A stretch of 62,379 bases of DNA, counting the filler, from Babesia bigemina (Eukaryota): assembly GCF_000981445.1 (NCBI RefSeq). It is 11 parts of 11 records of this genome, joined end to end, with 100 filler letters (N's around TTAATTAATTAA, not from the genome) between each part and the next. Parts side by side here need not be neighbours in the genome. Positions count along the whole stretch, not along the records: positions 1 to 12,797 come from NW_012237047.1; 10 more parts are not named here. One strand, given 5' to 3'. The position numbers and the translations under genes were made by a program. The notes under the pieces were generated by a model, which saw only the letters and a program-made list of their open reading frames with translations, did no database searches and was not told where the DNA came from. Below, in pieces: positions 1 through 54,052 of this stretch (positions are counted from its first letter, which is position 1; the number at the start of each line of letters is the position of its first letter).

Positions 1-1092
1 GATTTTTTTCATGCACCAGCGTGTGATGGACACTCACAATTTTGTCACGCAACTTTTCGTTAAAATCATTAATGGCGTCTTTGTTGCTATTGTGACTATT
101 TTTGACATCTAAGTCATTAGTGAAGTTTCAGCTTTCCGCTGACAATCTGCCAGGCTCTTCTTAACGGACTCCTCGTTCAGTCCAATTTGCTTGGCGTCAT
201 CTGCAAGAGCATTATCTTTTTGTATTTCACTTACCGTTTTGTGAAGCAGCTGCATTTCCTTACTGAAAGTCTGTATTTTATTCTTAATGCTTTCATTCGA
301 CGACTTCACTGCCTGGTTGTACCGGTTGACGTTGACAGTCACCATGGGAAACGCCTTGCAAAAACCATCGTGACCTGAGTTCAAATTTGATTTTAAAGTG
401 CTACTAACTAATGTATTTAAGTATTCCTTACCTGTTTCGTAAGGCTGTTTCTCGCTGACATCCTCAAGCACACCACTCAAAAATCCCATCACTGCGTCAC
501 ACAGCCTATCCAAGTCAGAGTACACAATCCCCTGGCCATCGTAGCCTTTGGAGGCAGAGTTGAAGCCGAGGAAAGTCTGAAGGCCGTCACATAAATTATC
601 TAAGAGATTTTTAGGCTCATTTGAAGGCTTACTAACATTAACATAAAATCCACAAAGCTTCTCCACTTCCTTCAAAGCCTGCAACTTGGACTGCAATTTG
701 GCTGACTCAGCAGAGGGAGAGGGGGAAGAAAGAAGATTATTAGGAAGGTTATTTGGCTTATTAAGGCTATTAATATGCTGTTCAGTTTCAGTAATTTCTT
801 GGTTAACTCGCTCACTAAGCTTCTCAATTTCACCGGTGTCACCAGCCTGGCCAGCAGAGTTGACAGACACAGAAAGGTTAGTAACATAAGAAAAGTAAAC
901 ATTTTTAAGGTTTTCATTACTGTCAATTTTAGCGATAATAGCATTCTTAACGGCTTTCTTAACACTTTCACTCTCACCAACAAATCCGCCAAGCTGTCCA
1001 GCCAGGTGACCAAGGCTAATGAGCTTGGAGTCAATGTCCTCCAAGGCTCTTCTAGTAGCATCGTCAGTGAGAGAATGGTCGGCATCAACAAG
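1..1092 (-). CDS. ves1: VESA1-like variant surface antigen, 5' part (runs off window start)
   Basis: Motifs LGHLAGQLGGFVG and LCDGLQTFLGF..KGYDGQGIVYSDLDRLCDAVMGFLSGVL are shared with the other ves ORFs here. The frame is open 1092 to 109, then continues in another frame (DVKNSHNSNKDAINDF...) to base 1. No in-frame ATG before DAVMGF. Confidence 0.85.
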
Positions 1093-1276
1093 TTATTATG
1101 ATGCTTAATAGAGGTCATAGCGATATTATGGCGAGGTAATTCAAGAGATTTGGACATAGGGTGAACATGGTCAGGGCAGTGGCAAGAGGTGGAAGAGGGG
1201 AAGGGAAGGGTGACAAGGCACAAGTTATTGCTATGGTTTAGTAAGGTCATAGCGGTATTATGGCGAGGTAATTCGA
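1093..1276 (-). other. Conserved ves 5' leader element, two tandem copies (ATGs at 1250 and 1118)
   Basis: GAATTACCTCGCCATAAT..CGCTATGACC..AATAACTTGT occurs twice. The same element is at ~10700-10760, 35520-35665, 46134-46285 and 53865-54050. Confidence 0.8.
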
Positions 1277-1820
1277 GGGATGTAGAGTGGATAAAGGGGC
1301 GATGCAGAGTGGGTTAAGGGGCGATGTGGAGTGGATAAAGGGGCGATGTGGAGTGGATAAAGGGGCGATGTGGAGTGGGTTAGGGAGCGATTAGAGGAGG
1401 TTAAGGGGCGATGTAGGGTGGATAAAGGAGCGATGTAGAGTGGGTTAGGGAGCGATGTGGAGTGGGTTAGGGAGCGATGTGGAGTGGGTTAGGGAGCGAT
1501 GTAGAGTGGGTAAAGGAGCGATGTAGAGTGGGTAAAGGAGCGATGTAGAGTGGGTAAAGGGGCGATGTAGAGTGGGTTAAGGGGCGACGTAGAGTGGGTA
1601 AAGGGGCGATGTAGAGTGGATTAGGGAGCGATGTAGAGTGGATAAGGGAGCGATGTAGAGTGGGTTAAGGGGCGATGTAGAGAGGATAAAGGGGCGATGT
1701 AGAGTGGGTTAAGGGGCGATGTAGAGTGGGTTAAGGGGCGATGTGGAGTGGGTAAAGGGGCGATGTAGAGTGGGTAAGGGGCGATGTAGAGTGGGTTAAG
1801 GGGCGATGTAGAGTGGGTAA
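1277..1820 (+). repeat. 22-bp G-rich tandem array (GGGGCGATGTAGAGTGGATAAA / GGGAGCGATGTAGAGTGGGTTA)
   Basis: Directly visible; about 25 units. Confidence 0.97.
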
Positions 1821-1850
1821 TAATCACCACTTAGGTCAGGTGCTTGCTCA

Positions 1851-1932
1851 CCATTTCACCGCTGCCGTGACCATGTCACCGCTGCCGTAACCATGTCATC
1901 GCTGCCGTTACCATGTCATCGCTGCCGTGACC
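1851..1932 (+). repeat. 20-bp tandem repeat (CCATGTCATCGCTGCCGTGA)
   Basis: About 4 units; same repeat at 12731, 13491 and, inverted, at 45540. Confidence 0.9.
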
Positions 1933-1941
1933 ACTAACTTG

Positions 1942-2200
1942 CTCAGGTGCTTGGTCAACACGTTGGTCGTGGCATTGGTCAGCACATTGGTCAACACCTT
2001 GGTCACCACGTTGGTCAGCACCTTGGTCAACACTTTGGTCATGGCATTGGTCAGCACTTTGGTCATGGCATTGGTCAGCAGTTAGGTCACCACGTTGGGC
2101 AGCACTTTGGTCATGGCATTGGTCACCATTTTGGTAGGGTGCTAGGTTAGGTGGTTGATCAGCACGTTGGTCATGACATTGGCCAGGTGCTTGGTCACCT
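1942..2200 (+). repeat. 12-bp degenerate tandem repeat (GGTCAGCACTTT / GGTCATGGCATT / GGTCACCACGTT)
   Basis: Gives the GQHF/GHGI low-complexity ORF; inverted copy at 45212-45539. Confidence 0.88.
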
Positions 2201-2288
2201 CAATGCTAATGTGTGATTGATCATCAATGCAATAATAATCTTGCTTGTCTACAACATTAGATGTCAGTTGCCAGTTGGGTGATTGTGA

Positions 2289-2423
2289 TTAGCCGCGCAG
2301 TAGATACCGCACCCTATGGAACGGCCGGATGCAGAAGTAGATCATGACGCAGATGACGATGATGACGAGGGCGACGGCGGCGATGATGTAAGGGGCGGGT
2401 GTTACGGTCACCTCACTGCTCAT
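2289..2423 (-). CDS. 44-aa single-TM micro-ORF, duplicate of the TM/tail of the adjacent Cys-rich gene
   Basis: Translated by hand: MSSEVTVTPAPYIIAAVALVIIVICVMIYFCIRPFHRVRYLLRG*. Paralogous to the C-terminus of 2493..2930. Confidence 0.5.
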   Translation of the reverse strand: MSSEVTVTPAPYIIAAVALVIIVICVMIYFCIRPFHRVRYLLRG

Positions 2424-2492
2424 GTGATTGTTCATAAACACAATGATTACTGTCTAGACATTAGATGTCAGTTGGCAGTTAGGTTATTGTGA

Positions 2493-2930
2493 CTAGCTGC
2501 GCAGTAGATACCGCACCCTGTGGAACGGCCGGATGCGGAAGTAGCTCATGACGCAGATGGCGATGATGATGAGGGCGACGGGGACGATGATGATGGGTAT
2601 GACGACGGGGGAGGATGTGGAAGATGGTGGACCGGAGGTGTGCTGAAGGGTGGAGGAAGAGGTGACATGGGAGGATGTGCGGGATGCCTGTAGACTGCCG
2701 CCACGCTGAACAAGGGGTGCCGGAGGGCGTCTGCTCAGCCCGCAATAACATGAACACGCGCCAGGTTTACACTCTGTACATCCATCGGGCTCGCACTTTC
2801 CTTCTCCCCTCATGCGCTGACTGTAGATATTGCGACATATAGAAAAACATGATACACATTTATTACAAGACACGTAGCAGCAATAACAATTACTTCGAGT
2901 ACATTTATTGTTGCACTTACACAGCGCCAT
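2493..2930 (-). CDS. Small Cys-rich single-pass membrane protein (145 aa), ves-associated family member A
   Basis: Cys-dense N-terminal ~63 aa, Ser/Thr/Pro stalk, hydrophobic VVIPIIIVPVALIIIAICVMSYF and a basic tail. Homologous starts at 40058 and 47513 share the GGAAG-ATG context. Confidence 0.78.
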   Translation of the reverse strand: MALCKCNNKCTRSNCYCCYVSCNKCVSCFSICRNIYSQRMRGEGKCEPDGCTECKPGACSCYCGLSRRPPAPLVQRGGSLQASRTSSHVTSSSTLQHTSGPPSSTSSPVVIPIIIVPVALIIIAICVMSYFRIRPFHRVRYLLRS

Positions 2931-2938
2931 CTTCCCCT

Positions 2939-3478
2939 CCCAGTCCCCTCAACCTGCAAACATGTCAATCACCTAGCAACGCACTCACCAACTGCAACAC
3001 GTACCACTGCCGCTACCACTCCCCTCAACCTGCAAGCATATCAATCACCTAGCAACGCACTCACCAACACAACACTACCACTGCCGCTCCCAGTCCCCTC
3101 AACCTGCAAACATATCAATCACCTAGCAACGCACTCACCAACACAACACGTACCACTGCCGCTCCCAGTCCCCTCAACCTGCAAACATATCAATCACCTA
3201 GCAAGCACTCACCAACTGCAACACTACCACTGCCGCTACCAGTCCCCTCAACCTGCAAACATATCAATCACTCAAGCAGCACTCACCAACTGCAACACTA
3301 CCACTGCCGCTCCCAGTCCCCTCAACCTGCAACCATGTCAATCACTAACCAACGCACTCACCAACTGCAACACGTACCACTGCCGCTCCCAGTCCCCTCA
3401 GCCTGCAGACATATCAATCACCTAGCAACGCACTCACCAACTGCAACACGTACCACTGCCGCTCCCAGTCCCCTCATC
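2939..3478 (-). repeat. ~75-bp tandem array (~7 units) directly upstream of the Cys-rich gene
   Basis: Unit starts at 2941, 3017, 3091, 3166, 3240, 3314, 3390 and 3466. Confidence 0.95.
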
Positions 3479-3991
3479 AACACGCACCCTCACCCCTGTA
3501 CCCCCCCAGCCCAGGCCACCGACACCCACGCTGCCCGGGATACCACAGCTGCCCTGACGCGACGCATGTGATCAGCACCAACTGTCACTCTAAATTATTT
3601 ACTATTCGCAACGCGGTAAAAATTGCAGCGAGCCCCGTGCGCTCAACTCCCACAGTGCAGCAGCACCGTGCTACGAGCCGCGGTATCGGCGCCATGCTGG
3701 CGGAGCGTGTCGGCTACGTGCCTAAATGTGACATTAACGATCGTTACATTGCCGCCTATAAATGCTACTTAACCAGGCCAACTCGGATTGCGCCACCCTG
3801 CCAGTGACTCGCAACACACGACTTAGGTCACCCGCCGCGGTCCTCACGGCCGCCTACGTTAGCAACCAATCACCCAGCCTCACGTGACACTCACTCAATG
3901 GGCAACGCGGACGCCTCTCACAGTCAACGCACAACTCAACTTACCAGGCAATCAACGTGCTACAACACCCACCAAATTACGGTTCATCCGC
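3479..3991. promoter_or_regulatory. Conserved ~500-bp non-repetitive block (candidate promoter/regulatory element)
   Basis: Near-identical copies at 14731-15236 and 40836-41335, always between the 75-bp and 24-bp arrays. Function is inferred from position only. Confidence 0.45.
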
Positions 3992-4920
3992 CACCTTAGC
4001 ACTTAGCTTGGTTGCTAGGTTACCACTTTGCCTGGTTGCTTGCTTATCACTTAGCTTGGTTGCTAGCTTATCACTTAGCTTGGTTGCTTGCTTATCACTT
4101 TGCCTGGGTGCCAGCTTAGCACATTGCCTGGTTGCTACCTTAGCACTTTGCCTAGGTGCTAGGTCAACACGTTGCCTGACTGCTTGCTTAGCACATTGCT
4201 TGTGTGCTAGCTTAGCACTTTGCCTGCGTGCTAGCTTAGCACTTTGCCTGCGTGCTAGCTTAGCACTTTGCCTAGTTGCTAGGTCAGCACTTAGCCTGAG
4301 TGCTAGCTTTGCACTTTGCCCGGGTGCTAGCTTACCACTTTGCCTGGTTGCCAGCTTTGCACTTTGCCTGGCTGCTAGGTTAAGACCTTGCCTGCGTGCT
4401 CGCTTAGCACTTTGCCTGGTTGCCAGCTTAGCACTTTGCCTGGGTGCTAGGTGAGCACTTTGCCTGGGTGCTAGGTTAGCACTTAGCTTGTGTGCTACCT
4501 TACCACTTAGCCTGGGTGCTGAGTTAGCACGTCGCCTGATTGCTTGCTTACCACTTTGCCTGTGTGCCAGCTTACCACGTTGCCTGGTTGCTAGGTTAGC
4601 ACTTAGCCTGGGTGCTAGGTTACCACGTTGCCTGTGTGCCAGCTTAGCACTTTGCCTGGCTGCTAAGTCAGCACTTTGCCTGTGTGCCAGCTTATCACTT
4701 TGCCTGGTTGCTAGGTTATCACTTAGCCTGGTTGCTAGGTTATCACTTAGCCTGGTTGCTACCTTACCACGTTGCCTGGGTGCTAGCTTAACACTTAGCC
4801 TGGTTGCTAGCTTAGCACTTTGCCTGGTTGCTTAATCAACACTTTGCCTGGGTGCTAGGTCAACACTTTGCCTGGTTGCTAGCTTACCACTTTGCCTGGT
4901 TGCTAGGTCAACACGTTGCT
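3992..4920 (+). repeat. 24-bp tandem array (CTTAGCACTTTGCCTGGGTGCTAG), ~39 units
   Basis: Directly visible; ~145 bp downstream of the ves stop codon. Confidence 0.95.
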
Positions 4921-5065
4921 TTGTCGTTCACTCATCACTTAATCTCAACGCTATCTAGTTCACAGGTTGCCGCTAGAGTAATTCGAGACATTAGACTACG
5001 TTTGTCGGTTAGGTGAGTAGGTGAGTAGTTACGTGAGTTACTGTGAATTACAAATGTGACGATGA

Positions 5066-8000
5066 TCACGGTTGTAGATACGATATCTTGGCAAGCCTTC
5101 CGACTTGCGCCGCCGCCAACAATGACTGCGCCGTTATCTTGTGCGACGACGGTATCCTCAGGTGTGAGCGTATGTGGAGCACATCCAGTCTGCCAACCAT
5201 TACGCAGATGAGGTAGAAGAGGGAGAGTGACCAGAGTGCGAGAACCAAGTAGGTGAACGGTTGTCTGATGGTCCAAATGAAGTTGTCACATTCTTCAAAT
5301 AATTTGGTGAAGTGTTGCGATGTTAGTACGTTCTGTAATTGCGCGTAGAGGTTACGGCAGTATCTTCTTTGATCATCAGACAACAATTTTTCGGCGTCGC
5401 CAAATGTGAAGCCGTAGTTGTATAAAGTGCTCAGCACACCACGGCATCCCACCAGCGATCGGCACCGACAGCTGTATATATCGCCGTGTTTGCCCGGTCT
5501 ACAAGAAATGCCGTCGACACATCTGCTGCATCCCCAATCTTGACAAGAGATACTGCTATGCGAATCGAACAATGATTTCAGATAGCTATACAAAGACCAT
5601 GGTAAATACACGGCCCATGATAGGTAGAGGTTGCAATGCTTCTTTGCCAGATAGTGATACGAGTCGCAAAATAGAGTCTGAAGGTAAGGCCCGCAGTTAA
5701 CGTTGTCTTCGTTAGCAAGCATACATGACTCGTCCATTGAGAGGCTTGACATATCAGCCGATTTGGGGTTATGCTTACTTTTATCATGACTACTCTGGTT
5801 GCTACCATACGCGGCATCAAGCGCACTTGTAAGTTTGTTTGAGTCTTTATACAGGTCGATGGACACCGCGTTGATTGATGTGTTAAAAGCTGTCGTAACG
5901 TCCTGCGCAGTTGCATTTTTCGTATTATGCAATACATGAGTTAACGCCAACGCAAACTGGAAGTGCTCAGGCAGCGTGCTCGGCGGGCTGGGTACAAGGC
6001 ACAAAAGGGACGACACTAGGCCGCTACCAAACAGCAGTTTCAAAATCTCATATATATCTCTACCAGTTTTGGTAGATCCCGAGAACGCCCTGAAACCGAG
6101 GGGAGTGACGCATGGCATTCCGAGTTTAGCGACAGATGGACACGTTGAGCAAACGGACCGGCAGCCGATGGAAGTCAGCTTGTGAGGCAAGTGACCAGTT
6201 AGACAGTCACCCAGATACGACATTAATGGAGACGTTGGTTGACAATTTGGTCGGCACGTTACTTTGTCGTTTGGTTGGCATTTTGGTTCATCCGTTGAGT
6301 GATTTTTGCATGGCCATTTGTTCGTCTTGATATCTCTGCCGTATAGGCATTGCGCCCATCCACCGTGGTTTGTGCCTAGACTGCATTGGTAATACAAGTA
6401 TCTCAGTGGCGGCAACATACGACGCAGAATATCGAGAATGGTTTGCAGACATTCCTCACCGGAAGTGGGATATTTGAGGTTGAAGTAGTTTGTGTGGAAG
6501 TCGACCGCGTACACTGTCTCGGCGTTGCCGTGGCCCATGACGGTGGTGAGCAGATCATACGATTTCGTACACAGATGTTGCAACGCTGTGTTCACGCTGT
6601 TGTACGTAATGTTGCTCGGATGTGCCGTTATGGATTCCACCCGCGTGTCTGTTAACGTCAGCTCAAGGCCGTCATCGTCCACAACTCTCTGCTTAGATGG
6701 ATTCTCAAACGGCGCACTGAGGCCGTTCTGTAACAGCTCCTCGTAAACGGGGTGATGTGGGAGGCCGGTGAACCATACAAGCATTTCATGAACATTACAC
6801 GGCAGACGTGATTTGGGCCGGAGTGCTTGGTGGCAGACGTCGTAGTACTGCTTAAGGTAACTAGAAAGCGTATTAAGTGGTCCTTTCTCTCTTGCATCAT
6901 CGTGGCTGCTGTACACTTTCCCACTGCGACCGATAAGTCGGCCTAGGATATGCTCGCCGGTCATATCACTTCTGTCTTGCAGCTCGCCATTTTGCTCCCC
7001 GTTATCCGACACTTTGTAACCTTGCTCGGCTAACAGATCGCCAATGTCAGTATCTCTGTTGATTCGTTTCTTTGGCAAACTCTTGCAGTTAGATTTCAAC
7101 GTATGCAGCGAAACGTCCAAGGTGCGGAGCACCGTGAGGAACACCTTAGACAACCTGGTGCCTTCGTCAGTCAGATCATATTTCATGTTAACGTCACTAG
7201 TGCTGGAGACGTGTTGAAGGTTTTTTACTAGCTCACCGTAGAAGGTCTCACTATCATACACGCTCACGTACGCCTTTTCCAGCTCACCGTGCATCCTCTG
7301 CACGCCCTTTCTAAGACACTCGAGCAGGGGGTTGCTAGCGTCGGCGTAGGATGCGGGGCGGATGGTTGCGAGGAGGGAGGAAAGGGAGGAGAGGTTGGAG
7401 AGGAAGGGGCGGTTGAAACGGGATAATCCTGTAAATAATGCACCAAACGATTGGAGAAGTTCTGTGATTTTAACAGGTTCAGGCATGATTTGAGTGTTAG
7501 TGTCAAGTGTGGCAAACAAAGCGCTAAAGAAGATGTTAACGTCGGATGAAAAGTCAAGCAGAACATCAGTGCGCTGTGATGCTGCATTGAGATGCAAGAC
7601 TGCTTTATCATACAACTCCTTCATGAATCCCTTGTAGCATTTGTTTGCATCGTCTGCGATTTGTGCAGGCAGATGTTCGAGTTCCTTGTTGACTTTGTCG
7701 GCGAATTCCACAAGTTGGGATGCAATAAATTTGGCGTATCTCAATTTCAGGTGGTTGGTTATGCTGGACATGGCTCTGTCAAATTGTTCAGTGATTTTCT
7801 CGGAGAGTTGCTCGATTATAATGTTACCGTATCTACCGGCATCGTTAACAATTTCTTGAGCTTCGTCAACACGAGGGCGTATGTGTTTGGTTTGCAACTC
7901 ATACATCAGTGAGTGAAATTCCTCTAGACCACCTGGCAATTCGGTATTTCCTTTAGCAAGCATTCTTCTCAACTCTAATAACTTCGCCTTAGCACTATTG

Positions 8001-10723
8001 TGATCGGCGTCAGCGGCGTTTCTTATGGTGTCACAGAAGTTTGTGATGTGAGTCGTAATTAGCTGTGCTGTAGATTTTATCGTAGAAATATTAATTTGTT
8101 TTACGTTTACCGGAACAATGAATGCGTCTAACGCCTTTTCATGAACTTGTCTAATAGCCTTGCCAAGCGTACCGTTACTTTCAACATATATATTATAATC
8201 CGTCATTTTTGTCTTCAACTTCTGCCTATCGGCTTTCAGGTAATCCATCATGATTACTTCGATGTCATTATCAACTTCCTCGGTTGTTAAAATTTTGTCA
8301 AGCTGCTTGATCTTATCCTTTACGGTTAACAACGCCGTGCGTAGCTTTCCTCCGTATTTCGCATCATCCGTAAGTTCAGTCCATATTTCATTAGCTTTGC
8401 TTATAGCGTCGTCTACATTTTTTCCTAAGTTGTAGGCAACTATACCGTTGCTATGGTTTTCGGTGGTGAATGCCTTGATCTCATCTGCCGATTTTCTCAC
8501 TACGAGACTAAGTTGTGCTAATGCAGTTCGAATAGCAGATTGCAGATAGTCTTTAGACTGAACTGCGGAGGCTCGTGATGTCAAAAATTTTTTTTCAACT
8601 TCTGTAGCTATAACATTTGCATTATCCGGACTAACGCCTTTCTCAATTGCAGCAGCTACTTCATCATGGAACCTATTAATTTCTGATAGCATTGAAGCAA
8701 CGTTTCCACTGACGGCTGGTTTTTGTATGTTACCTTCTTTAACAAGTTTCACTATCTTCGGTATTATATCAGCGATAACTTCCTTCCGCTTCTGTTCCAA
8801 TTCGTTGCCACGCTGCGCACTACTAAGGTTATTACTCTGAATGTACCAGTCTATATGCATATTTACTGTATCGTTCTTTTCCAAAATCTTATTCAACCAG
8901 CTCTCCACCGTTATTGCAAACGCATCCGTTGTAAGTTTTTGAGCATACTCCTTCAATCGTTCTTTTATCCCTTCAAGGCCGTCATGCTTTGGATGCCCTT
9001 TTTCTTTCCCTGCTCCAGTCCCATTAATTTTTTTGATAAGTCCATTAACCACAATCTTCAGCATACCCAAATTGTGTTGGATACTATTATCGCTACCGCC
9101 AGAAGTCTGCTCTAGTGTGTTCCTCTTAATTTCATCAAACTCCACGCGAGCCCACTCTATATACTCCTTCAACTTTTCTTTGATTTCTCCTTCCAATCTC
9201 TGCAGACCTTTTACGATAACTCCATCTAATCCTGTAACCGCAGTTTTAACATTTTTTATCAGATGCGGCAGGGCTTTTTCAGCTATCTCATAAGCCTCAT
9301 ACAAAGCCACTCCTTTTCTTTCCAAAGTCAGAACGGCCTCTTTGAGTTTCTCTACATATTGAGTTTTAGATTGGCCCGTAGCTTCACACAATACTTGTTC
9401 AACTTTATTTAACGCAACTATGACAACCTTGTCTGCTTTCGTGATCCACTCGTTAAGTTCATTGACATAATGTGTCAACAACCCATTTATATCTGAGAGT
9501 TTCTGTTTAATTTCAGATATCTTCTCGCATATTACGCTTACGAACGCTTTAATGTTCTCAACGGCCATCTCATTTATTGTATTTCTAGCAGCATTCAGTT
9601 GAGTTTCTATCAACTCACTGGCATGCTTTATATGAAGTTGTTCTATTTTCCATACTTCACCAAGCCGCCAATACTGATATGTAATTGCATCACTAGCATT
9701 ATTAATTTTAGTTTGCAAGTCCGTTTGTAAATCGTCTATATTCTTCTTCTCAGCTGCCATGCCATCATCGTATGACTGCGCTTGTTGGAGGCATGTCTGC
9801 ATATGCGCATCTACTTGACTCACGGCCATGTTAATTTCACCTGCAACAGCATTACTAATACTAATTCCACTTACCGATGCTTTGATCTCTTTCATTTGTT
9901 GTGTGAAAGTGTCAATGACATTTCTTACAGCTTGATTACTCTCCCTCACCTTCTCATTATACCCCCGCACCCCTGCGACCACCCTTCCAATCGCAGCATT
10001 AAAACCGTTTTTACCGGCGTGTTTATTGGTGTTAAGAATGTCAATTGTTTCATTTAAAGTCTCTTTATGCTGCCCTAAATGCTCTTTGATGTTGCTGAGA
10101 ACACCACTCAAAAATCCCATCACCCCGTCACACAGCCTATCCAGGTCAGAGTACACAATACCACTGCCGTCGTAGCCTTTGGAGGCAGCATTGAAGCCGA
10201 GGAATTTCTCGAGGCCGTCACATAAATGCGTTAAAATATTATTATTTTCACCATTTTTAGTAAGTGATTCAGCAAATTCAGCAAGCTTCTTCACAGTCTC
10301 CAAAGCAGACAACTTGGACTGACAGTCATGTAAACGCTTATTTTCTTCTTCAGTTAGATATGAATTTTGCTTACTTTGAAGCTCTTTTATAGTTTCAGGA
10401 AGATTTTTGACTTCATTTTTTATCGCTTCTTTAATCTGCTCGAAACTTTTTTTCTTGGGAGTAGTAGACTCAGTAGGCTTAGCAGGCAAAGGAGCCGAGC
10501 CGGCAGGCGAGGCGACGGAAGAAGAAGCTTTAGCGAGAGGGTATTGCTTGTTTAGAGATTCATAAGCTTTACCTATAGCCTCCTCAATCAACTTTTTCAA
10601 AGCTTGAGACAACTTGGTAAGACCATCATCACCACCATTCCCATACCTAACCTGGATCAACCAGTCGATGGACTCAGTCAGAAGGGAAGTGAAAGGTGAC
10701 AAGTCACAAGTTATTAGGATGGT
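5066..10723 (-). CDS. ves1: VESA1-like variant surface antigen, near full-length open frame (~1,885 codons)
   Basis: N-terminal ESIDWLIQV, GIVYSDLDRLCDG, long helical variable region, Cys-rich C-terminal region, TM (FTYLVLALWSLSLFYLICVMV) and tail RLDVLHIRSHLRIPSSHKI..SYLQP. The ORF-track start is TTG, not ATG. Confidence 0.92.
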   Translation of the reverse strand, partial: TILITCDLSPFTSLLTESIDWLIQVRYGNGGDDGLTKLSQALKKLIEEAIGKAYESLNKQYPLAKASSSVASPAGSAPLPAKPTESTTPKKKSFEQIKEAIKNEVKNLPETIKELQSKQNSYLTEEENKRLHDCQSKLSALETVKKLAEFAESLTKNGENNNILTHLCDGLEKFLGFNAASKGYDGSGIVYSDLDRLCDGVMGFLSGVLSNIKEHLGQHKETLNETIDILNTNKHAGKNGFNAAIGRVVAGVRGYNEKVRESNQAVRNVIDTFTQQMKEIKASVSGISISNAVAGEINMAVSQVDAHMQTCLQQAQSYDDGMAAEKKNIDDLQTDLQTKINNASDAITYQYWRLGEVWKIEQLHIKHASELIETQLNAARNTINEMAVENIKAFVSVICEKISEIKQKLSDINGLLTHYVNELNEWITKADKVVIVALNKVEQVLCEATGQSKTQYVEKLKEAVLTLERKGVALYEAYEIAEKALPHLIKNVKTAVTGLDGVIVKGLQRLEGEIKEKLKEYIEWARVEFDEIKRNTLEQTSGGSDNSIQHNLGMLKIVVNGLIKKINGTGAGKEKGHPKHDGLEGIKERLKEYAQKLTTDAFAITVESWLNKILEKNDTVNMHIDWYIQSNNLSSAQRGNELEQKRKEVIADIIPKIVKLVKEGNIQKPAVSGNVASMLSEINRFHDEVAAAIEKGVSPDNANVIATEVEKKFLTSRASAVQSKDYLQSAIRTALAQLSLVVRKSADEIKAFTTENHSNGIVAYNLGKNVDDAISKANEIWTELTDDAKYGGKLRTALLTVKDKIKQLDKILTTEEVDNDIEVIMMDYLKADRQKLKTKMTDYNIYVESNGTLGKAIRQVHEKALDAFIVPVNVKQINISTIKSTAQLITTHITNFCDTIRNAADADHNSAKAKLLELRRMLAKGNTELPGGLEEFHSLMYELQTKHIRPRVDEAQEIVNDAGRYGNIIIEQLSEKITEQFDRAMSSITNHLKLRYAKFIASQLVEFADKVNKELEHLPAQIADDANKCYKGFMKELYDKAVLHLNAASQRTDVLLDFSSDVNIFFSALFATLDTNTQIMPEPVKITELLQSFGALFTGLSRFNRPFLSNLSSLSSLLATIRPASYADASNPLLECLRKGVQRMHGELEKAYVSVYDSETFYGELVKNLQHVSSTSDVNMKYDLTDEGTRLSKVFLTVLRTLDVSLHTLKSNCKSLPKKRINRDTDIGDLLAEQGYKVSDNGEQNGELQDRSDMTGEHILGRLIGRSGKVYSSHDDAREKGPLNTLSSYLKQYYDVCHQALRPKSRLPCNVHEMLVWFTGLPHHPVYEELLQNGLSAPFENPSKQRVVDDDGLELTLTDTRVESITAHPSNITYNSVNTALQHLCTKSYDLLTTVMGHGNAETVYAVDFHTNYFNLKYPTSGEECLQTILDILRRMLPPLRYLYYQCSLGTNHGGWAQCLYGRDIKTNKWPCKNHSTDEPKCQPNDKVTCRPNCQPTSPLMSYLGDCLTGHLPHKLTSIGCRSVCSTCPSVAKLGMPCVTPLGFRAFSGSTKTGRDIYEILKLLFGSGLVSSLLCLVPSPPSTLPEHFQFALALTHVLHNTKNATAQDVTTAFNTSINAVSIDLYKDSNKLTSALDAAYGSNQSSHDKSKHNPKSADMSSLSMDESCMLANEDNVNCGPYLQTLFCDSYHYLAKKHCNLYLSWAVYLPWSLYSYLKSLFDSHSSISCQDWGCSRCVDGISCRPGKHGDIYSCRCRSLVGCRGVLSTLYNYGFTFGDAEKLLSDDQRRYCRNLYAQLQNVLTSQHFTKLFEECDNFIWTIRQPFTYLVLALWSLSLFYLICVMVGRLDVLHIRSHLRIPSSHKITAQSLLAAAQVGRLAKISYLQP

Positions 10724-10762
10724 TTAAAGAGGTCATAGCGTTAAAATAACGAAGTAATTCAA

Positions 10763-12712: not shown

Positions 12713-12730
12713 ATACTCCCCACTCTGGTC

Positions 12731-12797
12731 TCCATGTCATCGCTGCCGTGTCCATGTCATCGCTGCCGTGTCCATGTCATCGCTGCTGTGTCCATGA
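12731..12797 (+). repeat. 20-bp tandem repeat (cut by gap)
   Basis: TCCATGTCATCGCTGCCGTG x3. Confidence 0.88.
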
Positions 12798-12897
12798 NNN
12801 NNNNNNNNNNNNNNNNNNNNNNNNNNNNNNNNNNNNNNNNNTTAATTAATTAANNNNNNNNNNNNNNNNNNNNNNNNNNNNNNNNNNNNNNNNNNNN
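12798..12897. other. Assembly gap with TTAATTAATTAA linker
   Basis: N44-TTAATTAATTAA-N44 artificial contig spacer. Confidence 0.98.
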
Positions 12898-13474: not shown

Positions 13475-13490
13475 TAATCACCACTAGTGT

Positions 13491-13610: not shown

Positions 13611-13611
13611 T

Positions 13612-16075: not shown

Positions 16076-16076
16076 A

Positions 16077-35326: not shown

Positions 35327-35639
35327 TCACCGCACCAAGCACACCACTCAAAAATCCCATCACCCCGTCACACAGCCTGTCCAGGTCAGAGTACACTATC
35401 CCACTGCCGTCGTAGCCTTTGGTGTCAGAGTTGAAGCCGAGGAATTTTTCGAGGCCAAAGCAAAGGTTATTAAGGATGTTAGTAGGGTTGTTATTTGAGG
35501 TATTTTTAGGATTTTAAATTTTGTCAAATTTCTTGTGAAGCTCCCTAGGCGGCACATGGTCAGGGCAGTGGCAAGAGGTGGAAGAAAGGAAGGGAAGGGT
35601 GACAAGGCACAAGTTATTGCTATGGTTAATAGAGGTCAT
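35327..35639 (-). pseudogene. ves1: ves 5' fragment with in-frame TAA, truncated by junction to unrelated DNA
   Basis: MTSINHSNNLCLVTLPFLSSTSCHCPDHVPPRELHKKFDKI*NPKNTSNNNPTNILNNLC..GIVYSDLDRLCDGVMGFLSGVLGAV, after which homology stops. Confidence 0.8.
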
Positions 35640-35665
35640 AGAGGTATTATGGCGAGGTAATTGAA

Positions 35666-37592
35666 GGGATGTAGAGTGGATAAAGGGGCGATGTAGAGTG
35701 GACAAAGGGGCGATGTAGAGTGGACAAAGGGGCGATGTAGAGTGGGTAAAGGGGCGATGTAGAGTGGATAAGAGCGATGTAGAGTGGATAAAGGGGCGAT
35801 GTAGAGTGGATAAAGGGGCGATGTAGAGTGGATTAGGGAGCGATGTAGAGTGGATAAGGGAGCGATGTAGAGTGGGTAAAGGGGCGATGTAGAGTGGATT
35901 AAGGAGCGATGTAGAGTGGGTTAGGGAGCGATGTGGAGTGGATTAAGGGGCGATGAAGAGTGGATTAGGGAGCGATGTAGAGTGGATAAGGGGGCGATGT
36001 AGAGTGGGTAAAGGGGCGATGTAGAGTGGGTTAAGGAGCGATGTAGAGTGGGTAAAGGGGCGATGTAGAGTGGATTAAGGGGCGATGTGGAGTGGGTTAA
36101 GGAGCGATGTAGAGTGGGTTAAGGGGCGATGTAGAGTGGATAAAGGAGCGATGTAGAGTGGATTAGGGAGCGATGTAGAGTGGGTTAAGGGGCGATGTGG
36201 AGTGGGTAAAGGGGCGATGTAGAGTGGATTAAGGAGCGATGTAGAGTGGGTTAAGGGGCGATGTAGAGTGGATAAAGGAGCGATGTAGAGTTGATAAAGG
36301 GGCGATGTAGAGTGGTTTAGGGAGCGATGTAGAGTGGGTTAAGGGGCGATGTAGAGTGGGTAAAGGGGCGATGTAGAGTGGATAAAGGGGCGATGTAGAG
36401 TGGGTTAAGGGGCGATGTAGAGTGGATAAAGGGGCGATGTAGAGTGGGTTAGGGAGCGATGTAGAGTGGATAAAGGGGCGATGTGGAGTGGATAAAGGGG
36501 CGATGTAGAGTGGGTAAGGGAGCGATGTAGAGCGGGTAAGGGGCGATGTGGAGTGGGTTAAGGGGCGACGTAGAGTGGGTAAAGGGGCGATGTAGAGTGG
36601 GTTAGGGAGCGATGTAGAGTGGGTAAAGGAGCGATGTAGAGTGGGTTAAGGAGCGATGAAGGGTGGGTAAAGGGGCGATGTAGAGTGGATAAAGGGGCGA
36701 TGTAGAGTGGGTAAAGGGGCGATGTGGAGTGGGTTAGGGAGCGATGTAGAGTGGATAAAGGAGCGATGTACAGTGGGTTAGGGAGCGATGTAGAGTGGGT
36801 TAAGGGGCGATGTGGAGTGGGTTAAGGGGCGATGTAGAGTGGGTTAAGGGGCGATGTAGAGTGGGTAAAGGGGCGATGAAGGGTGGATAAAGGGGCGATG
36901 TAGAGTGGATAAAGGGGCGATGTGGAGTGGGTTAAGGGGCGATGTAGAGTGGGTTAGGGGGCGATGTAGAGTGGGTAGAGGGGCGATGTGGAGTGGATAG
37001 AGGAGCGATGTAGAGTGGGTTAGGGAGCGATGTAGGGTGGGTTAGGGAGCGATGTAGAGTGGGTTAGGGAGCGATGTAGAGTGGATAAAGGGGCGATGTA
37101 AAGTGGATTAGGGAGCGATGTAGAGTGGGTTAAGGGGCGATGTAGGGTGGATAAAGGGGCGATGTGGAGTGGGTTAGGGAGCGATGTAGAGTGGATTAGG
37201 GAGCGATGTAGGGTGGGTTAGGGAGCGATGTAGAGTGGGTTAGGGAGCGATGTAGAGTGGATAAAGGGGCGATGTAAAGTGGATTAGGGAGCGATGTAGA
37301 GTGGGTTAAGGAGCGATGTAGGGTGGGTTAGGGAGCGATGTAGAGTGGGTAAAGGAGCGATGTAGAGTGGATAAAGGGGCGATGTGGAGTGGGTAAAGGA
37401 GCGATGTAGAGTGGATAAGGGAGCGATGTGGAGTGGATAAGGGGCGATGTAAGGTGGGTAAAGGGGCGATGTAGAGTGGGTTAGGGAGCGATGTAGAGTG
37501 GGTAAAGGAGCGATGTAGAGTGGATAGAGGAGCGATGTAGAGTGGGTAAAGGGGCGATGTGGAGTGGATAAAAAGGCGATGTAGAGTGGGTA
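35666..37592 (+). repeat. 22-bp G-rich tandem array, >1.9 kb (cut by gap)
   Basis: Directly visible. Confidence 0.97.
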
Positions 37593-39879: not shown

Positions 39880-40058
39880 AGATGACCAAAGTATGCCCGG
39901 CAGTCAGTCTTATTTTTGCGCAGGAGGAGATATCCCCAACATCCATTGCAATTGTCACTCTTACATTTTTCACAGCACCACGAGCAGCAGACACAACTAA
40001 ACCGTGGACAACTAATATCACATGTACACGGAGAACCTGACGTGGACACCCAAACCAT
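39880..40058 (-). CDS. Small Cys-rich protein, family member B (5' part, cut by gap)
   Basis: MVWVSTSGSPCTCDISCPRFSCVCCSWCCEKCKSDNCNGCW..; same position and ATG context as member A. Confidence 0.72.
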
Positions 40059-40067
40059 CTTCCGCTA

Positions 40068-40835
40068 CCAATCCCCTCAACCTGCAAACATATCAATCAC
40101 CTAAGCAGCACTCACCAACTGCAACACTACCACTGCCGCTCCCAGTCCCCTCAACCTGCAGACATATCAATCACTCAAGCAGCACTCACCAACTGCAACA
40201 CGTACCACTGCCGCTCCCAGTCCCCTCAACCTGCAAGCATATCAATCACCTAAGCAACGCACTCACCAACTGCAACACGTACCACTGCCGCTCCCAGTCC
40301 CCTCAACCTGCAAGCATATCAATCACCTAGCAACGCACTCACCTACTACGACACGCACCACTGCCGCTCCCAGTCCCCTCAACCTGCTAACATATCAATC
40401 ACTCAAGCAACGCACTCACCAACTGCAACACGTGACACTGCCGCTCCACTCCCCTCAACCTGCAAGCATATCAATCACCTAAGCAACGCACTCACCAACT
40501 GCAACACGTACCACTGCCGCTCCCAGTCCCCTCAACCTGCAAGCATATCAATCACCTAGCAACGCACTCACCTACTACGACACGCACCACTGCCGCTCCC
40601 AGTCCCCTCAACCTGCTAACATATCAATCACTTAGTCAACGCACTCACCAACTGCAACACTACCACTGCCGCTCCCAGTCCCCTCAACCTGCAAACATAT
40701 CACTCACTCAAGCAGCACTCACCAACTGCAACACTACCACTGCCGCTCCCACTCCCCTCAACCTGCAAGCATATCAGTCACTCAAGCAGCACTCACCAAC
40801 TGCAACACTACCACTGCCGCTCCCACTCCCCTCAT
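40068..40835 (-). repeat. ~75-bp tandem array (~10 units)
   Basis: Same unit as 2939-3478. Confidence 0.95.
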
Positions 40836-41335
40836 CAACACTCACCCTCACCGCTGTATCCCCCCAGCCCAGGCCACCGACACCCACGCTGCCCGGGATA
40901 CCACAGCTGCGCCTGACGCGACGCATGTGATCAGCACCAACTGTCACTCTAAATTATTCACTATTCGCAACGCCATACATATTGCAGCGACCCGTGCGCT
41001 CAACTCCCACAGTGCAGCAGCACCGTGCTACGAGCCGCGGTATCGGCGCCATGCTGGCGGAGCGTGTCGGCTACGTGCCTAAATGTGATATTAACGATCG
41101 TTACATTGCCGCCTATAAATGCTACTTAACCAGGCCAACGCGGATTACGCCACCCCGCCAGTGACTCGCAACACACGACTTAGGTCACCCGCCGCGGCCC
41201 TCACGACCGCTACGTTAGCGACCAATCACCCAGCCTCACGTGACACCGACTCAATGGGCAACGTGGACGCCTCTCACAGTCAACGCACCGGGCAATCAAC
41301 GTGCTATAACACCCACCAAATTACGGTTCATCCGC
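40836..41335. promoter_or_regulatory. Conserved ~500-bp block, copy 3
   Basis: Near-identical to 3479-3991 with small indels. Confidence 0.45.
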
Positions 41336-42527
41336 CAGCTTACCACTTTGCCTGGTTGCTAGCTAAGCACTTTGCCTGGTTGCTAGCTTAGCACTTTGCC
41401 TGGTTGCTAGCTTAGCACTTTGCCTGGTTGCTAGCTTAGCACTTTGCCTGAGTGCTAGCTTACCACGTTGTCTGGTTGTAAGCTTACCACTTTGCCTGGT
41501 TGCCAGCTTAGCACTTTGCCTGGTTGCCAGCTTAGCACTTCGCCTGGTTGCTAGGTCAACACTTTGCCTGGATGCTAGGTTAGCATTTAGCCTGGTTGCT
41601 AGGTTACCACTTTGCCTGGGTGCTAGGTTAGCACTTTGCCCGAGTGCCAGCTTACCACTATGCCTGGGTGCTAGCTTACCACTTTGCCTGGTTGCCAGCT
41701 TAGCACTTTGCCTGGTTGCCAGCTTAGCACTTCGCCTGGTTGCTAGGTCAACACTTTGCCTGGGTGCTAGGTTACCACTTTGCCTGGTTGCTAGGTTACC
41801 ACTTTGCCTGGGTGCCAGCTTACCACTTTGCCTGGGTGCTAGCTTACCACTTTGCCTGGTTGCTAGGTCAACACTTTGCCTGGATGCTAGGTTAGCACTT
41901 AGCCTGGTTGCTAGGTTACCACTTTGCCTGGGTGCTAGGTTAGCACTTTGCCCGAGTGCCAGCTTACCACTATGCCTGGGTGCTAGGTTAGCACTTTGCC
42001 TGGGTGCTAGGTCAACACTTTGCCTGGGTGCTAGCTTACCACGTTGCCTGGTTGCTAGGTCAACACTTTGCCTGGGTGCCAGCTTACCACGTTGCCTGGG
42101 TGCTAGCTTAGCACTTTGCCTGGTTGCTAGCTTAGCACTTTGCCTGGGTGCTAGCTCAGCACTTTGCCTGGGTGCTAGCTTAGCACTTTGCCTGGATGCT
42201 AGCTTAGCACTTTGCCTGAGTGCTAGGTTACCACTTTGCCTGGGTGCTAGCTTAGCACTTTGCCTGGTTGCTAGCTTAGCACTTTGCCTGGGTGCTAGGT
42301 TACCACTTTGCCTGGGTGCTAGCTCAACACTTTGCCTGGTTGCTAGCTTATCACTTTGCCTGGGTGCCAGCTTATCACTTTGCCTGGGTGCTAGGTTAAC
42401 ACTTAGCTTGCGTGCTTGCTTAGCACTTTGCCTGGATGCTTGCTTAGCACTTTGCCTGGGTGCTAGGTTAGCACTTTGCCTGGGTGCTTGCTTAGCACTT
42501 TGCCTGGGTGCTAGGTCAACACTTTGC
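41336..42527 (+). repeat. 24-bp tandem array, ~50 units
   Basis: Directly visible. Confidence 0.95.
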
Positions 42528-42682
42528 ATTGTCTGTCAGTCATCACTTAATTTCAACGCTATTTAGTTTACAGGTTGCCGCTAGAGTAATTCGAGACATT
42601 AGACTACGTTTGTCGGTTAGGTGAGTAGGTGATGGTAGGTGAGATGTTACGTGAGTTGTGTGAGTTACAAACGTGAATACGA

Positions 42683-47400: not shown

Positions 47401-47513
47401 CCACACTCACCGCAATAGACACTCTTACATGTTGCGCAACACCACGGACAACAAACACATGATCGACCCATTCGACATCCCGTACCACATATACACGGAT
47501 CCCCGCTCCCCAT
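47401..47513 (-). CDS. Small Cys-rich protein, family member C (5' part, cut by gap; absent from ORF track)
   Basis: Translated by hand: MGSGDPCICGTGCRMGRSCVCCPWCCATCKSVYCGEC; GGAAG-ATG context. Confidence 0.72.
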
Positions 47514-47527
47514 CTTCCCCTCTCCCT

Positions 47528-47661
47528 CCCAGTCCCCTCAATCTGCAAACATATCAATCACTCAAGCAGCACTCACCAACTGCAACACGTACCACTGCCG
47601 CTCCCAGTCCACTCAACCTGCAAACATATCAATCACTCAAGCAGCACTCACCAACTGCAAC
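47528..47661 (-). repeat. ~75-bp repeat, 2 units
   Basis: Same unit as 2939-3478. Confidence 0.9.
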
Positions 47662-48365
47662 CATGAACCACGTACCTCAGCCAAGGACACTGCCGTCTTC
47701 CATAAGTTCCACAGCCACCCGGCTAACCGCCATAAAACTTACATCCAATTACATCACAACTATGCAGCTGCCAAAGCTGAAGTACTACCGAGGTAGAGCA
47801 CGTGGCTGGTATCCTCGCCGTGGCATGCAGGTCACCCGGTGTCATTTGATAAGGCAATTTGATCCATTGCAGTCCATCCGACGTTGCCAATTCCGCTTAT
47901 AAATATCATCACCTTTGTGTCATCATTAGTGCCTAACTGAGCCACATCACTTGATTAACGTGCTTCTCATTTACACCGTTGCCATCAATGTCACATAGCT
48001 ACGCCGCCCACTGGCCATCACATAGGGTAACCGCAGCTACATTCATTGCCTAACATCGCACATGATAGCTAACGTTCAACACAGTCACGTTTCATACGCT
48101 TCACGTTCACTTATCACAACACGCTTAAGCAGCGTAGGTTGATGACTTATAACCCGACATCACTACCCACTAAAGCCATGGGAGGGCGTGGGCACATTTC
48201 ACCTGTAGCTCACAACTCTATATCGCAAAACAAGAACCTATAATTGCATGAACTACATTAACTGCCAATTGCTGAGTAGGAATTACGTAATATATTTGGG
48301 TGAGTATTAGGTTAGGCGGTGGGTTGCTAGGTAGTGAGTTAGGTGAGTGGTGGTGAGGTGGTCTA

Positions 48366-53864: not shown

Positions 53865-54052
53865 TTATTATAAGGATTTATAAAGGTCATAGCGTTAATA
53901 AGACGAAGTAATTCGAGAGATTTGGAGTTAGGGTGAACATGATGGGACATGGCAGTGGCAAGAGGTGGAAGAGGGGAAGTGAAGGGTGACAAGCCACAAG
54001 TTATTGTTATGGTTTAAAAAGGTCATAGCCGTATTATGGCGAGGTGATTCAA
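53865..54052 (-). other. Conserved ves 5' leader, two tandem copies (ATGs at 54026 and 53890)
   Basis: MTFLNHNNNLWLVTLHFPSSTSCHCHVPSCSP* then MTFINPYNNLL.. out of frame with the ves ORF. Confidence 0.8.

What the first reader, a model, noticed from the sequence alone, without database searches (positions are those of the whole stretch)
1093..5065. Fixed-order multi-repeat cassette between ves genes: a candidate antigenic-variation module
SEEN: reading in ves transcription direction, this 4-kb interval runs ves stop > conserved 3' block > 24-bp array > ~500-bp unique block > 75-bp array > Cys-rich TM gene > extra TM tail > 12-bp array > 20-bp array > short boundary (TAATCACCACT on +) > 22-bp array > ATG leader > next ves gene. 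The same order and polarity recur in parts at 10724-12797, 12898-15505, 35514-37592, 39880-42682, 43803-46285 (inverted, in front of a + strand ves), 47401-48365 and 53865-55610. Mostly the copy numbers change (24-bp about 5/39/50 units; 75-bp about 2/7/10/15 units; 22-bp 0.4 to >1.9 kb), though some loci drop modules. KNOWN: B. bovis ves1 varies by segmental gene conversion into an active locus, and T. brucei 70-bp repeats delimit VSG conversion. INFERENCE: this is a structured recombination/regulatory unit, not random satellite. I do not know of a description of it.
Basis: partly seen in the sequence, partly recalled or inferred. Interest (0 to 1): 0.88.

Follow-up and report, generated by a model that had tools for sequence, protein, structure and literature searches.

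The report
Repeat spacer of ves1b antigen archive
In the cattle parasite Babesia bigemina, a fixed series of five short DNA repeats and a small unnamed membrane-protein gene lies between tandem surface-antigen (ves1b) genes that have lost their normal start, so it likely marks a silent archive of antigen sequence that the parasite would reshuffle by recombination.

Summary
The cassette is real and its order is fixed. The window, however, is 11 separate contigs joined by linkers, so most 'partial copies' are just contig ends and the 'inverted' copy is a flipped contig. Outside the reference copy, 24 of 28 module junctions keep the reference order, one is a forward deletion and three join foreign sequence. 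Several junctions recur in contigs of other public runs, which argues against misassembly. The flanking genes are B. bigemina ves1b. The 'ATG leader' does not read into the ves frame in 5 of 5 window genes, and all lack the normal ves1b start. Among tagged reference proteins that start is present in 4 of 4 interstitial copies and 0 of 11 chromosome-end copies. Published proteomics detects mostly interstitial VESA1B (17 of 18 rows). The Cys-rich TM gene belongs to an unnamed family (28 homologues found, all B. bigemina) enriched beside ves genes. Best reading: the co-duplicated spacer of a silent ves1b archive that passively supplies homology for ectopic exchange. An active role like the trypanosome 70-bp repeat is untested. 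I found no description in print (10 searches).

The parts
109..1092 (-). 5' part of a ves1b gene; begins at about residue 110-128 of intact ves1b and has no in-frame ATG from the leader
1093..1278 (-). Conserved 'leader': an ATG-containing block of about 50 bp present twice here, out of frame with the ves ORF; may itself be decayed ves1b 5' sequence (untested impression from the alignment)
1279..1820 (.). 22-bp array, 24.7 units, G-rich on the strand opposite to ves (GC skew 0.82); G4 score no higher than composition-matched shuffles
1821..1849 (.). Short boundary (TAATCACCACT); variants seen at the same junction in contigs 1, 2 and 7
1850..1933 (.). 20-bp array, 4.2 units; shares CTGCCG with the 75-bp unit, the site of the natural 75-to-20-bp join in contig 12898-16076
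1951..2135 (.). 12-bp array, 14.6 units; its unit resembles half of the 24-bp unit (by eye)
2200..2492 (-). Duplicated 3' end of the Cys-TM gene (second TM tail plus 3' flank); contig 43685-47300 holds about 5 copies of a related 287-bp unit with a different TM tail
2493..2930 (-). Cys-rich single-TM ORF, 145 aa, 17 Cys, ending RIRPFHRVRYLLRS; member of an unnamed family with 28 homologues found, all B. bigemina; ATG directly after the last 75-bp unit in 3 of 3 window copies
2937..3476 (.). 75-bp array, 7.2 units
3477..3994 (.). 518-bp non-coding block, 94-96% identical among 3 copies, with 1-2-bp indels; conserved TATAAA and CCAAT on +; no Rfam family and no unusual folding
3995..4906 (.). 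24-bp array, 38 units
4907..5065 (-). Conserved 3' flank of ves1b (85-91% among 3 copies; about 65% to the other ves1b 3' type)
5066..10723 (-). ves1b-class gene, 1885-codon open frame lacking about the first 12-14 residues of intact ves1b; the leader ATG upstream meets a stop after 10 codons
10724..12797 (.). Leader, 22-bp array (88.7 units) and 20-bp array, cut by the contig end
12898..15505 (.). Variant cassette that lacks the Cys-TM gene, TM tail and 12-bp array (75-bp array joined to 20-bp array)
35514..37592 (.). Leader and 22-bp array (87.7 units), cut by the contig end; the leader frame has a stop shared with the copy at 46129-46285
39880..42682 (.). 3' half: Cys-TM 5' end, 75-bp (10.3 units), 500-bp block, 24-bp (49.6), 3' flank; cut by the contig end
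43806..46285 (+). 5' half on a separately oriented contig: TM tails x5, 12-bp, 20-bp, 22-bp, leader
47401..48365 (.). Second cassette type: Cys-TM 5' end, about 2 units of 75-bp, an unrelated block of about 530 bp, diverged 3' flank, behind a ves1b with the other C-terminal type
53865..55610 (.). Doubled leader and 22-bp array (70.5 units), cut by the contig end

Best explanation
This is the conserved spacer of tandem ves1b arrays in Babesia bigemina whose genes lack their normal start, and it likely works as a passive homology scaffold of a silent, probably chromosome-end antigen archive. SHOWN: the repeating unit is ves1b, 3' flank, 24-bp array, 500-bp block, 75-bp array, small Cys-TM gene, 12/20/22-bp arrays and leader. 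Unit counts vary, modules are lost by joins at short shared motifs, and the window's cassette-linked ves1b genes have decayed 5' ends. INFERRED: the order is fixed because the whole unit was copied by ectopic or unequal recombination. The 94-96% identical block and the long arrays give several kb of homology around otherwise diverged genes, which lets whole genes move between arrays. The archived genes would donate segments to intact interstitial ves1b genes, as segmental gene conversion does in B. bovis. On this reading the repeats need no sequence-specific function.
For: 24 of 28 junctions outside the reference copy keep the order; 25 of 25 junctions between two known modules run forward. 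Order 500-bp block > 75-bp > Cys-TM is read in 6 of 28, and 75-bp > Cys-TM in 13 of 28, annotated homologues on all four chromosomes and small contigs. 7 of 16 chromosomal family members with accessions lie within two genes of a listed ves1b/ves1ba (background 3.8%; 0 of 100,000 permutations), and 3 more lie within two genes of a ves1a. Contig pieces from 3 of 4 other public runs bridge 75-bp|block, block|24-bp, 24-bp|3' flank or 3' flank|ves with at least 31 bases on each side (table 8; 32 of about 16,000 pieces shown). Identity is 91-93% over the last 180 nt of ves and 94-96% in the block, but 69-76% over the last 560 nt, so the homology block starts in the gene's 3' end. The leader ATG fails to reach the ves frame in 5 of 5 genes; two pairs share the same defect, so read error is unlikely. 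The missing N-terminus ranges from about 13 to about 150 residues. The normal start is in 4 of 4 interstitial and 0 of 11 chromosome-end tagged proteins (Fisher p 0.0007). 17 of 18 labelled VESA1B proteomics rows are led by an interstitial tag, while 47 of 81 listed ves1b/ves1ba sit in end clusters (p 4e-5; PMC4066756 supplement). A 75-to-20-bp join sits at a shared CTGCCG.
Against: No DNA beyond the window could be obtained, so genome-wide order rests on mis-translated annotation and covers only the 3' half. The tagged proteins may come from the same genome as the window, so they are other loci, not necessarily other strains. Database starts are gene-predictor choices, and 19 of 31 B. ovata homologues also start at the internal Met. 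8 of 89 B. bigemina proteins are annotated with the leader in frame. A single GT-AG intron could give an open frame in 4 of 5 window genes, and one donor position recurs in 3 of 5. One intact-start protein lies on a small unplaced contig (P0046), and one window ves1b without its start has no leader (60281-61558). A published RNA-seq table lists only 1 of 5 interstitial genes I looked up, and two end-cluster ves1b appear at about 1-2 CPM. One abundant peptide group in the proteomics also names five end-cluster tags, and peptides were mapped across strains. That the window contigs are subtelomeric is inferred; no telomere repeat is present. Six of the 16 family members had no listed ves within two genes (their ves1a/ves2 neighbours were not all looked up).
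Confidence: 0.5

Rival explanations
1. Active cis-element: the arrays are bound or processed specifically. Either they steer donor choice and conversion boundaries like the T. brucei 70-bp repeat, or they nucleate silencing like the repeat blocks upstream of subtelomeric P. falciparum var genes.
For: The 22-bp array lies directly upstream of 5 of the 6 ves1b 5' ends visible in the window, up to about 2 kb long, with fixed polarity and extreme G skew. The 3' half also follows interstitial ves1b genes detected as protein (tags 0305020 then 0305030; 0305600 then 0305620), so archive and expressed loci share at least that flank. The 500-bp block is more conserved than the adjacent coding sequence and keeps TATAAA and CCAAT in 3 of 3 copies.
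Against: G4Hunter fractions equal dinucleotide shuffles (0.37 vs 0.35; 0.25 vs 0.28; 0.31 vs 0.30; 0.18 vs 0.23), although long-loop G4 motifs are about twice the shuffle count in two long arrays. No structure in the block; 24-bp hairpins are inconsistent (z from -3.1 to +1.4). No Rfam family. Modules are dropped or swapped in real copies. B. bovis conversion breakpoints use 2-35-bp patches (PMC7485966).
Confidence: 0.22
2. Ordinary promoter and terminator DNA of an expressed ves1b subfamily: the leader is a real spliced first exon, and the 500-bp block plus 75-bp array is the promoter and 5' UTR of the Cys-TM gene.
For: Single-intron solutions exist in 4 of 5 genes, with one recurring donor in 3. 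8 of 89 proteins are annotated with the leader in frame. The 1,800-codon frames stay open. The Cys-TM ATG context is conserved in 3 of 3 copies.
Against: No single intron rescues the gene at 35.5 kb, acceptors differ among genes, and splicing cannot supply the missing conserved N-terminus. An intact ves1b (tag 0305020) is annotated as one exon: 5,226 nt for 1,741 aa. Detected protein comes mostly from interstitial loci. The TATAAA faces away from the Cys-TM gene.
Confidence: 0.15
3. Functionless debris: decaying pseudogene arrays whose minisatellites hitchhike and play no part in antigenic variation.
For: Decayed starts, duplicated tails (5 copies in one contig) and free copy-number change are typical of unstable chromosome ends.
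Against: Two full-length genes keep unbroken frames of 1,885 and 1,832 codons despite lacking starts, and the non-coding block stays 94-96% identical. Both suggest ongoing homogenisation or use.
Confidence: 0.1
4. Assembly artefact: the order was produced by repeat-induced misjoining.
For: Draft assembly with short contigs ending inside arrays, vector contamination and one odd MFS-to-22-bp join. No listed piece from another run spans the whole stretch.
Against: Copies differ by 4-6% in the unique block and carry different flanking genes. Four junctions are bridged in other runs. The 3'-half order recurs at chromosomal loci.
Confidence: 0.03

Closest known systems
B. bigemina ves1b family (PMC4066756: results parts 1-3 of 4, annotation methods, discussion, passages and proteomics supplement read)
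   Same: The flanking genes are ves1b-class (homologue BBBOND_0303890, a dominant VESA1B). The paper reports frequent transposition and mosaicism and says flanking motifs 'may exist'.
   Different: In the parts read, the paper describes no intergenic repeats, no Cys-TM family and no split between intact interstitial and start-less end copies.
T. brucei 70-bp repeats and silent VSG archive (PMC4858185, abstract read)
   Same: A direction-fixed tandem repeat lies upstream of archived antigen genes, with conserved 3' ends.
   Different: One repeat type, shared with the expression site, with a genetically shown role. Here there are five repeat types plus an embedded gene, the presence of the 22-bp array at expressed loci is untested, and no function is shown.
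Pneumocystis msg-I archive with UCS and CRJE (PMC5676039, passages read)
   Same: Tandem subtelomeric antigen genes lack a start codon and leader and are thought to serve as donors and mosaic reservoirs.
   Different: msg-I genes begin at one fixed 33-bp junction that fuses in frame to a single expression site. Here the junction varies from about residue 13 to 150, and many intact copies exist.
T. congolense conserved telomeric region: 369-bp repeat, CNE1, VSG (PMC6152948, passages read)
   Same: A fixed-order complex of repeat, conserved non-coding block and small genes beside variant antigen genes, with an unproven regulatory role.
   Different: One copy per chromosome end next to a telomere. 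Here the unit repeats between tandem genes, and its 3' half also occurs at interstitial loci.
P. falciparum subtelomeric repeat blocks (TAREs, rep20, SPE2) upstream of upsB var (recalled; search listing only)
   Same: An ordered series of different tandem repeats beside variant antigen genes in an apicomplexan.
   Different: Those lie between the telomere and an intact var promoter, not between genes, and a binding factor is known (recalled).
B. bovis locus of active transcription and segmental gene conversion (PMC7485966 and PMC4066756 passages)
   Same: Likely the same route of sequence transfer, from inactive ves genes to an active one.
   Different: B. bovis uses divergent ves1-alpha/ves1-beta pairs with a bidirectional promoter. 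The genes here are head to tail.

Membership tests
B. bigemina ves1b (flanking genes) | Homology to named VESA1B proteins over the conserved C-terminal TM region | tested here: met
   367 hits at E<=1e-10; the best 120 are B. bigemina, B. ovata or window-encoded, incl. BBBOND_0303890 at 52%
B. bigemina ves1b (flanking genes) | Intact conserved N-terminus with an in-frame start | tested here: not met
   Absent in 6 of 6 visible 5' ends (5 with leader, 1 without)
70-bp-repeat-type recombination element | Direction-fixed repeat directly upstream of archived antigen genes | tested here: met
   22-bp array upstream of 5 of 6 visible ves1b 5' ends, same polarity
70-bp-repeat-type recombination element | Same repeat upstream of the expressed gene | not testable with these tools
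   No genome held; only the 3' half could be traced to expressed loci through protein annotations
70-bp-repeat-type recombination element | Conversion boundaries fall in the repeat, and its loss changes donor choice | not testable with these tools
   Needs clones and genetics; one natural deletion joins two arrays
Pneumocystis UCS/CRJE-type archive | Archived genes lack the start | tested here: met
Pneumocystis UCS/CRJE-type archive | One fixed junction element at the same position in every archived gene | tested here: not met
   Join points vary from about residue 13 to 150
Structured ncRNA (Rfam families) | Covariance-model match or unusual folding of the 500-bp block | tested here: not met
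   One sub-threshold mir-11 match in the 24-bp array only; block z-scores -0.9 to +0.8
G-quadruplex switch element (pilE-type, recalled) | G4 propensity beyond base composition | tested here: inconclusive
   G4Hunter equal to shuffles; long-loop motifs 13 vs 7.1 and 17 vs 8.0 in two arrays, 4 vs 2.6 and 6 vs 4.1 in two others
VESA-derived mini-gene (Cys-TM ORF) | Detectable homology to the VESA1B C-terminus | tested here: not met
   hhalign probability 0.6%; best hmmsearch E 0.11; no Pfam family
Telomere-associated repeat block | Adjacency to telomere repeats | tested here: inconclusive
   No tandem telomere repeat in the window; GGGTTA hexamers occur inside 22-bp units; contigs are short and unplaced

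The most novel reading that the evidence does not exclude
B. bigemina runs a two-tier antigenic-variation system not yet described in Babesia. A few dozen intact interstitial ves1b genes are the expression-competent loci. Large arrays of start-less ves1b genes form the archive, each delimited by a 22-bp array upstream and a 24-bp/500-bp/75-bp/Cys-TM module downstream. The repeats actively set conversion boundaries or silencing, as an independent counterpart of the trypanosome 70-bp repeat, with an unnamed variant membrane-protein family travelling inside the cassette.
Probability: 0.25. Interest if true: 0.82.

Novelty: new variant of a known kind. Interest (0 to 1): 0.6.

Why it matters
How B. 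bigemina varies its erythrocyte-surface antigens is essentially unstudied: no expression site is known, and ves1b copies are counted as ordinary genes. If most arrayed copies are start-less donors marked by this spacer, the repertoire splits into a small expressible set and a large archive, and each class can be recognised from sequence. Expression-site mapping and donor-to-recipient tracing then become direct tests. The cassette also shows that some annotated 'hypothetical proteins' are partly translations of non-coding repeats. It points to an unnamed small membrane-protein family and to high-copy repeats, seen here only in B. bigemina data, that might serve for detection or strain typing.

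Tried and rejected
No genome is held for this window. Pattern scans found nothing in metagenome, viral or prokaryotic collections. No RNA holder was listed for the stretch, so transcription of the cassette stays open. Summed contig depth was not used as copy number. Module-skipping joints (12-bp to 24-bp; TM tail to 75-bp) fit natural deletions but may be mis-laid repeats, so they carry little weight. Pfam found no family for the ves or Cys-TM frames. The protein atlas gave only sub-0.9 hits. Cys-TM as a VESA C-terminal fragment was rejected. Rfam, folding and G4 tests gave no special signal. The long ORFs over the 24-bp arrays are repeat translations. The RNA-seq table of PMC9806345 lacked the 6 Cys-TM tags searched and did not separate intact from start-less ves1b; it is filtered, so absence was not counted as evidence. 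The proteomics and other supplements of PMC4066756 lacked 6 Cys-TM tags (file 1 not searchable). Earlier scan findings held nothing on this genome or sequence; the two hits by words were unrelated bacteria. Not in print, as far as searched: paper searches (77, 78 and 84 were for analogues), plus term look-ups in PMC10463595, PMC5660447, PMC4066756, PMC6630957, PMC10471129 and PMC7999288. Subscription papers, theses, figures and unseen supplements could hold a description. The SpeI-AvaI diagnostic fragment was looked up only as a search listing and not compared.


Full report
1. Observation. TRF and self-BLAST recover every module at the stated places. Reading in ves direction these are: 3' flank 4907-5065, 24-bp array 3995-4906, 518-bp block 3477-3994, 75-bp array 2937-3476, Cys-rich TM ORF 2493-2930, duplicated TM tail, 12-bp array 1951-2135, 20-bp array 1850-1933, boundary, 22-bp array 1279-1820 and leader 1093-1278. 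The window is not one locus: ten N44-TTAATTAATTAA-N44 spacers join 11 contigs. Contig 1 ends at 12797, the length on record for the contig of a protein it encodes, and one contig carries cloning vector. Only one cassette is complete, most partial copies stop at contig ends, and the 'inverted' copy is a separately oriented contig.

Within contigs, 24 of 28 junctions outside the reference copy keep the reference neighbour, one is a forward deletion and three join foreign sequence; none runs backwards. Array polarity relative to ves is constant. Two real variants exist. Contig 12898-16076 joins the 75-bp array to the 20-bp array at a shared CTGCCG. Contig 47401-55624 replaces the 24-bp array and block with unrelated DNA behind a ves1b of another C-terminal type.

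2. Not an artefact. Laying contigs of four other public runs on 700-5400 gave pieces that bridge four junctions with at least 31 bases on each side: 75-bp|block (X3), block|24-bp (X2, X4), 24-bp|3' flank (X2, X3, X4) and 3' flank|ves (X3). Only 32 of about 16,000 pieces were shown, and none spans the whole stretch. The three block copies in the window differ by 4-6% and flank different genes.

3. What the genes are. The long ORFs are B. bigemina ves1b-class; hits include BBBOND_0303890, named a dominant VESA1B in PMC4066756. The 145-aa ORF has 17 Cys, a Ser/Thr stalk, one TM helix and a basic tail. It found 13, then 28, homologues, all B. bigemina hypothetical proteins, with no Pfam family, no atlas hit of 0.9 or more and no detectable link to the VESA C-terminus. 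Its ATG follows the last 75-bp unit in 3 of 3 window copies.

4. Genome-wide order, by proxy. No genome or related DNA could be fetched, but gene predictors have read into the cassette. Of the 28 homologues, 13 begin with a translation of the 75-bp array on the same strand, and 6 with block > 75-bp > Cys-TM. I had accessions for 16 of the 21 chromosomal members. Seven lie within two genes of one of the 81 ves1b/ves1ba listed in the PMC5660447 supplement (background 3.8%; 0 of 100,000 permutations). Three more lie within two genes of a ves1a, and six were not resolved. So the 3' half accompanies ves genes generally, including interstitial ves1b detected as protein (0305020 then 0305030; 0305600 then 0305620). 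These proteins may derive from the same genome as the window, and the 5' half (12/20/22-bp) could not be traced this way.

5. The 'ATG leader' is not a working start as written. In 5 of 5 window genes the leader ATG meets a stop or lies out of frame with ves, and two pairs of contigs share the same defect. All lack the conserved ves1b start seen in intact proteins, with about 13 to 150 residues missing; a sixth gene lacks it without any leader. Among the 120 best of 367 homologues, 5 of 89 B. bigemina proteins (two of them window-encoded) start normally, 47 start at an internal Met, 14 at leader-type sequence and 23 elsewhere. Of 15 with chromosomal tags, the normal start is in 4 of 4 interstitial and 0 of 11 chromosome-end copies (p 0.0007). 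In the PMC4066756 proteomics table 17 of 18 labelled VESA1B rows are led by interstitial tags, against 47 of 81 listed genes in end clusters (p 4e-5; my end/interstitial assignment from accession order).

Against this: database starts are predictions, and B. ovata shows the same internal-Met habit (19 of 31). Eight proteins are annotated with the leader in frame. One intron could open the frame in 4 of 5 window genes, with one donor position recurring in 3. One abundant peptide group names five end-cluster tags as well. The RNA-seq table of PMC9806345 did not separate the classes.

6. How it likely works. Identity among copies is 91-93% in the last 180 nt of ves, 85-91% in the 3' flank and 94-96% in the block, but 69-76% over the last 560 nt. 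A long homology tract therefore begins in the gene's 3' end and runs through the spacer, and the 22-bp array bounds the next gene's 5' end. I infer that the gene-plus-spacer unit spreads by ectopic or unequal recombination, which fixes the order by descent, changes unit counts and drops modules at short shared motifs. I further infer that the start-less genes act as silent donors for intact interstitial genes, by the segmental conversion shown in B. bovis (PMC7485966). I put 0.5 on this whole reading; the structural part is much firmer. Sequence tests gave no sign of a special repeat function: G4Hunter scores equal shuffles, the block does not fold unusually, and Rfam gave no family. Rivals are an active 70-bp-like or silencing element (0.22), ordinary promoter and spliced leader DNA (0.15), debris (0.10) and misassembly (0.03).

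7. Known systems. It works like the repeat-flanked silent VSG archive of T. brucei (PMC4858185 abstract) and the start-less msg-I arrays of Pneumocystis (PMC5676039 passages). It resembles the fixed-order telomeric region of T. congolense (PMC6152948 passages) and, from recall, the P. falciparum subtelomeric repeat blocks (listing only). It is not a CRJE system, because the junction varies. Membership of the 70-bp type cannot be claimed without the repeat at an expressed locus.

8. Novelty. PMC4066756 (results parts 1-3 of 4, annotation methods, discussion, passages, supplements 2-4) says only that flanking motifs may exist. Term look-ups in PMC5660447, PMC10463595, PMC6630957, PMC10471129 and PMC7999288, and seven Babesia searches, showed no description of these repeats, the Cys-TM family or the intact/start-less split. 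Unseen figures, one unsearchable supplement and subscription papers could bear on this.

9. Verdict. A real, ordered, apparently undescribed spacer that is a new variant of a known kind. Its main value is that it marks a probable archive and makes the B. bigemina switching mechanism testable. Interest 0.6.

Noticed in passing
window 57830-60151: Contig with polylinker/lacZ-alpha-like sequence from about 58225 and a complete class A beta-lactamase ORF (58826-59698; TEM-like by recall): cloning-vector contamination joined to parasite-like sequence.
   Followed up: partly
window 12798-12897 and nine similar spacers: N44-TTAATTAATTAA-N44 linkers (stops in six frames) join 11 contigs; any order across them is artificial.
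   Followed up: yes
window 55725-57729: An MFS transporter fragment runs directly into a 45-unit 22-bp array; either a real join or a chimeric short contig.
   Followed up: no
window 31215-32060 (-): Short ves-like gene with an intact-looking ves N-terminus (probably ves2) and an apparent frameshift; no cassette module lies near it.
   Followed up: partly
window 33977-34736: 33-bp tandem repeat (17.8 units) with open frames on both strands, at a contig end; unrelated to the cassette.
   Followed up: no
window 43806-45219: About five copies of a 287-bp unit encoding a second TM-tail type (ending KIPFCIAFYS). In 3 annotated proteins it follows the RIRPFHR tail, and in 2 it replaces it.
   Followed up: partly
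window 60281-61558 (-): ves1b 5' part lacking the normal start, with unrelated upstream sequence and no leader or 22-bp array in the 800 bases visible.
   Followed up: partly
proteins P0003, P0008, P0009, P0010, P0135, P0137, P0140, P0141, P0147, P0148: The annotated N-termini of these 'hypothetical proteins' are translations of the 75-bp array and, in some, the 500-bp block, so their gene models are probably wrong at the 5' end.
   Followed up: yes
window 19033-21393 and 39058-39831: Housekeeping genes on other contigs: a Vps18/Pep3-like ORF and an M16 peptidase fragment.
   Followed up: no
neighbours of P0007, P0009, P0013: Members of the expanded 6-Cys cluster #3 of PMC5660447 lie next to several Cys-TM genes at ves1a loci.
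   Followed up: no
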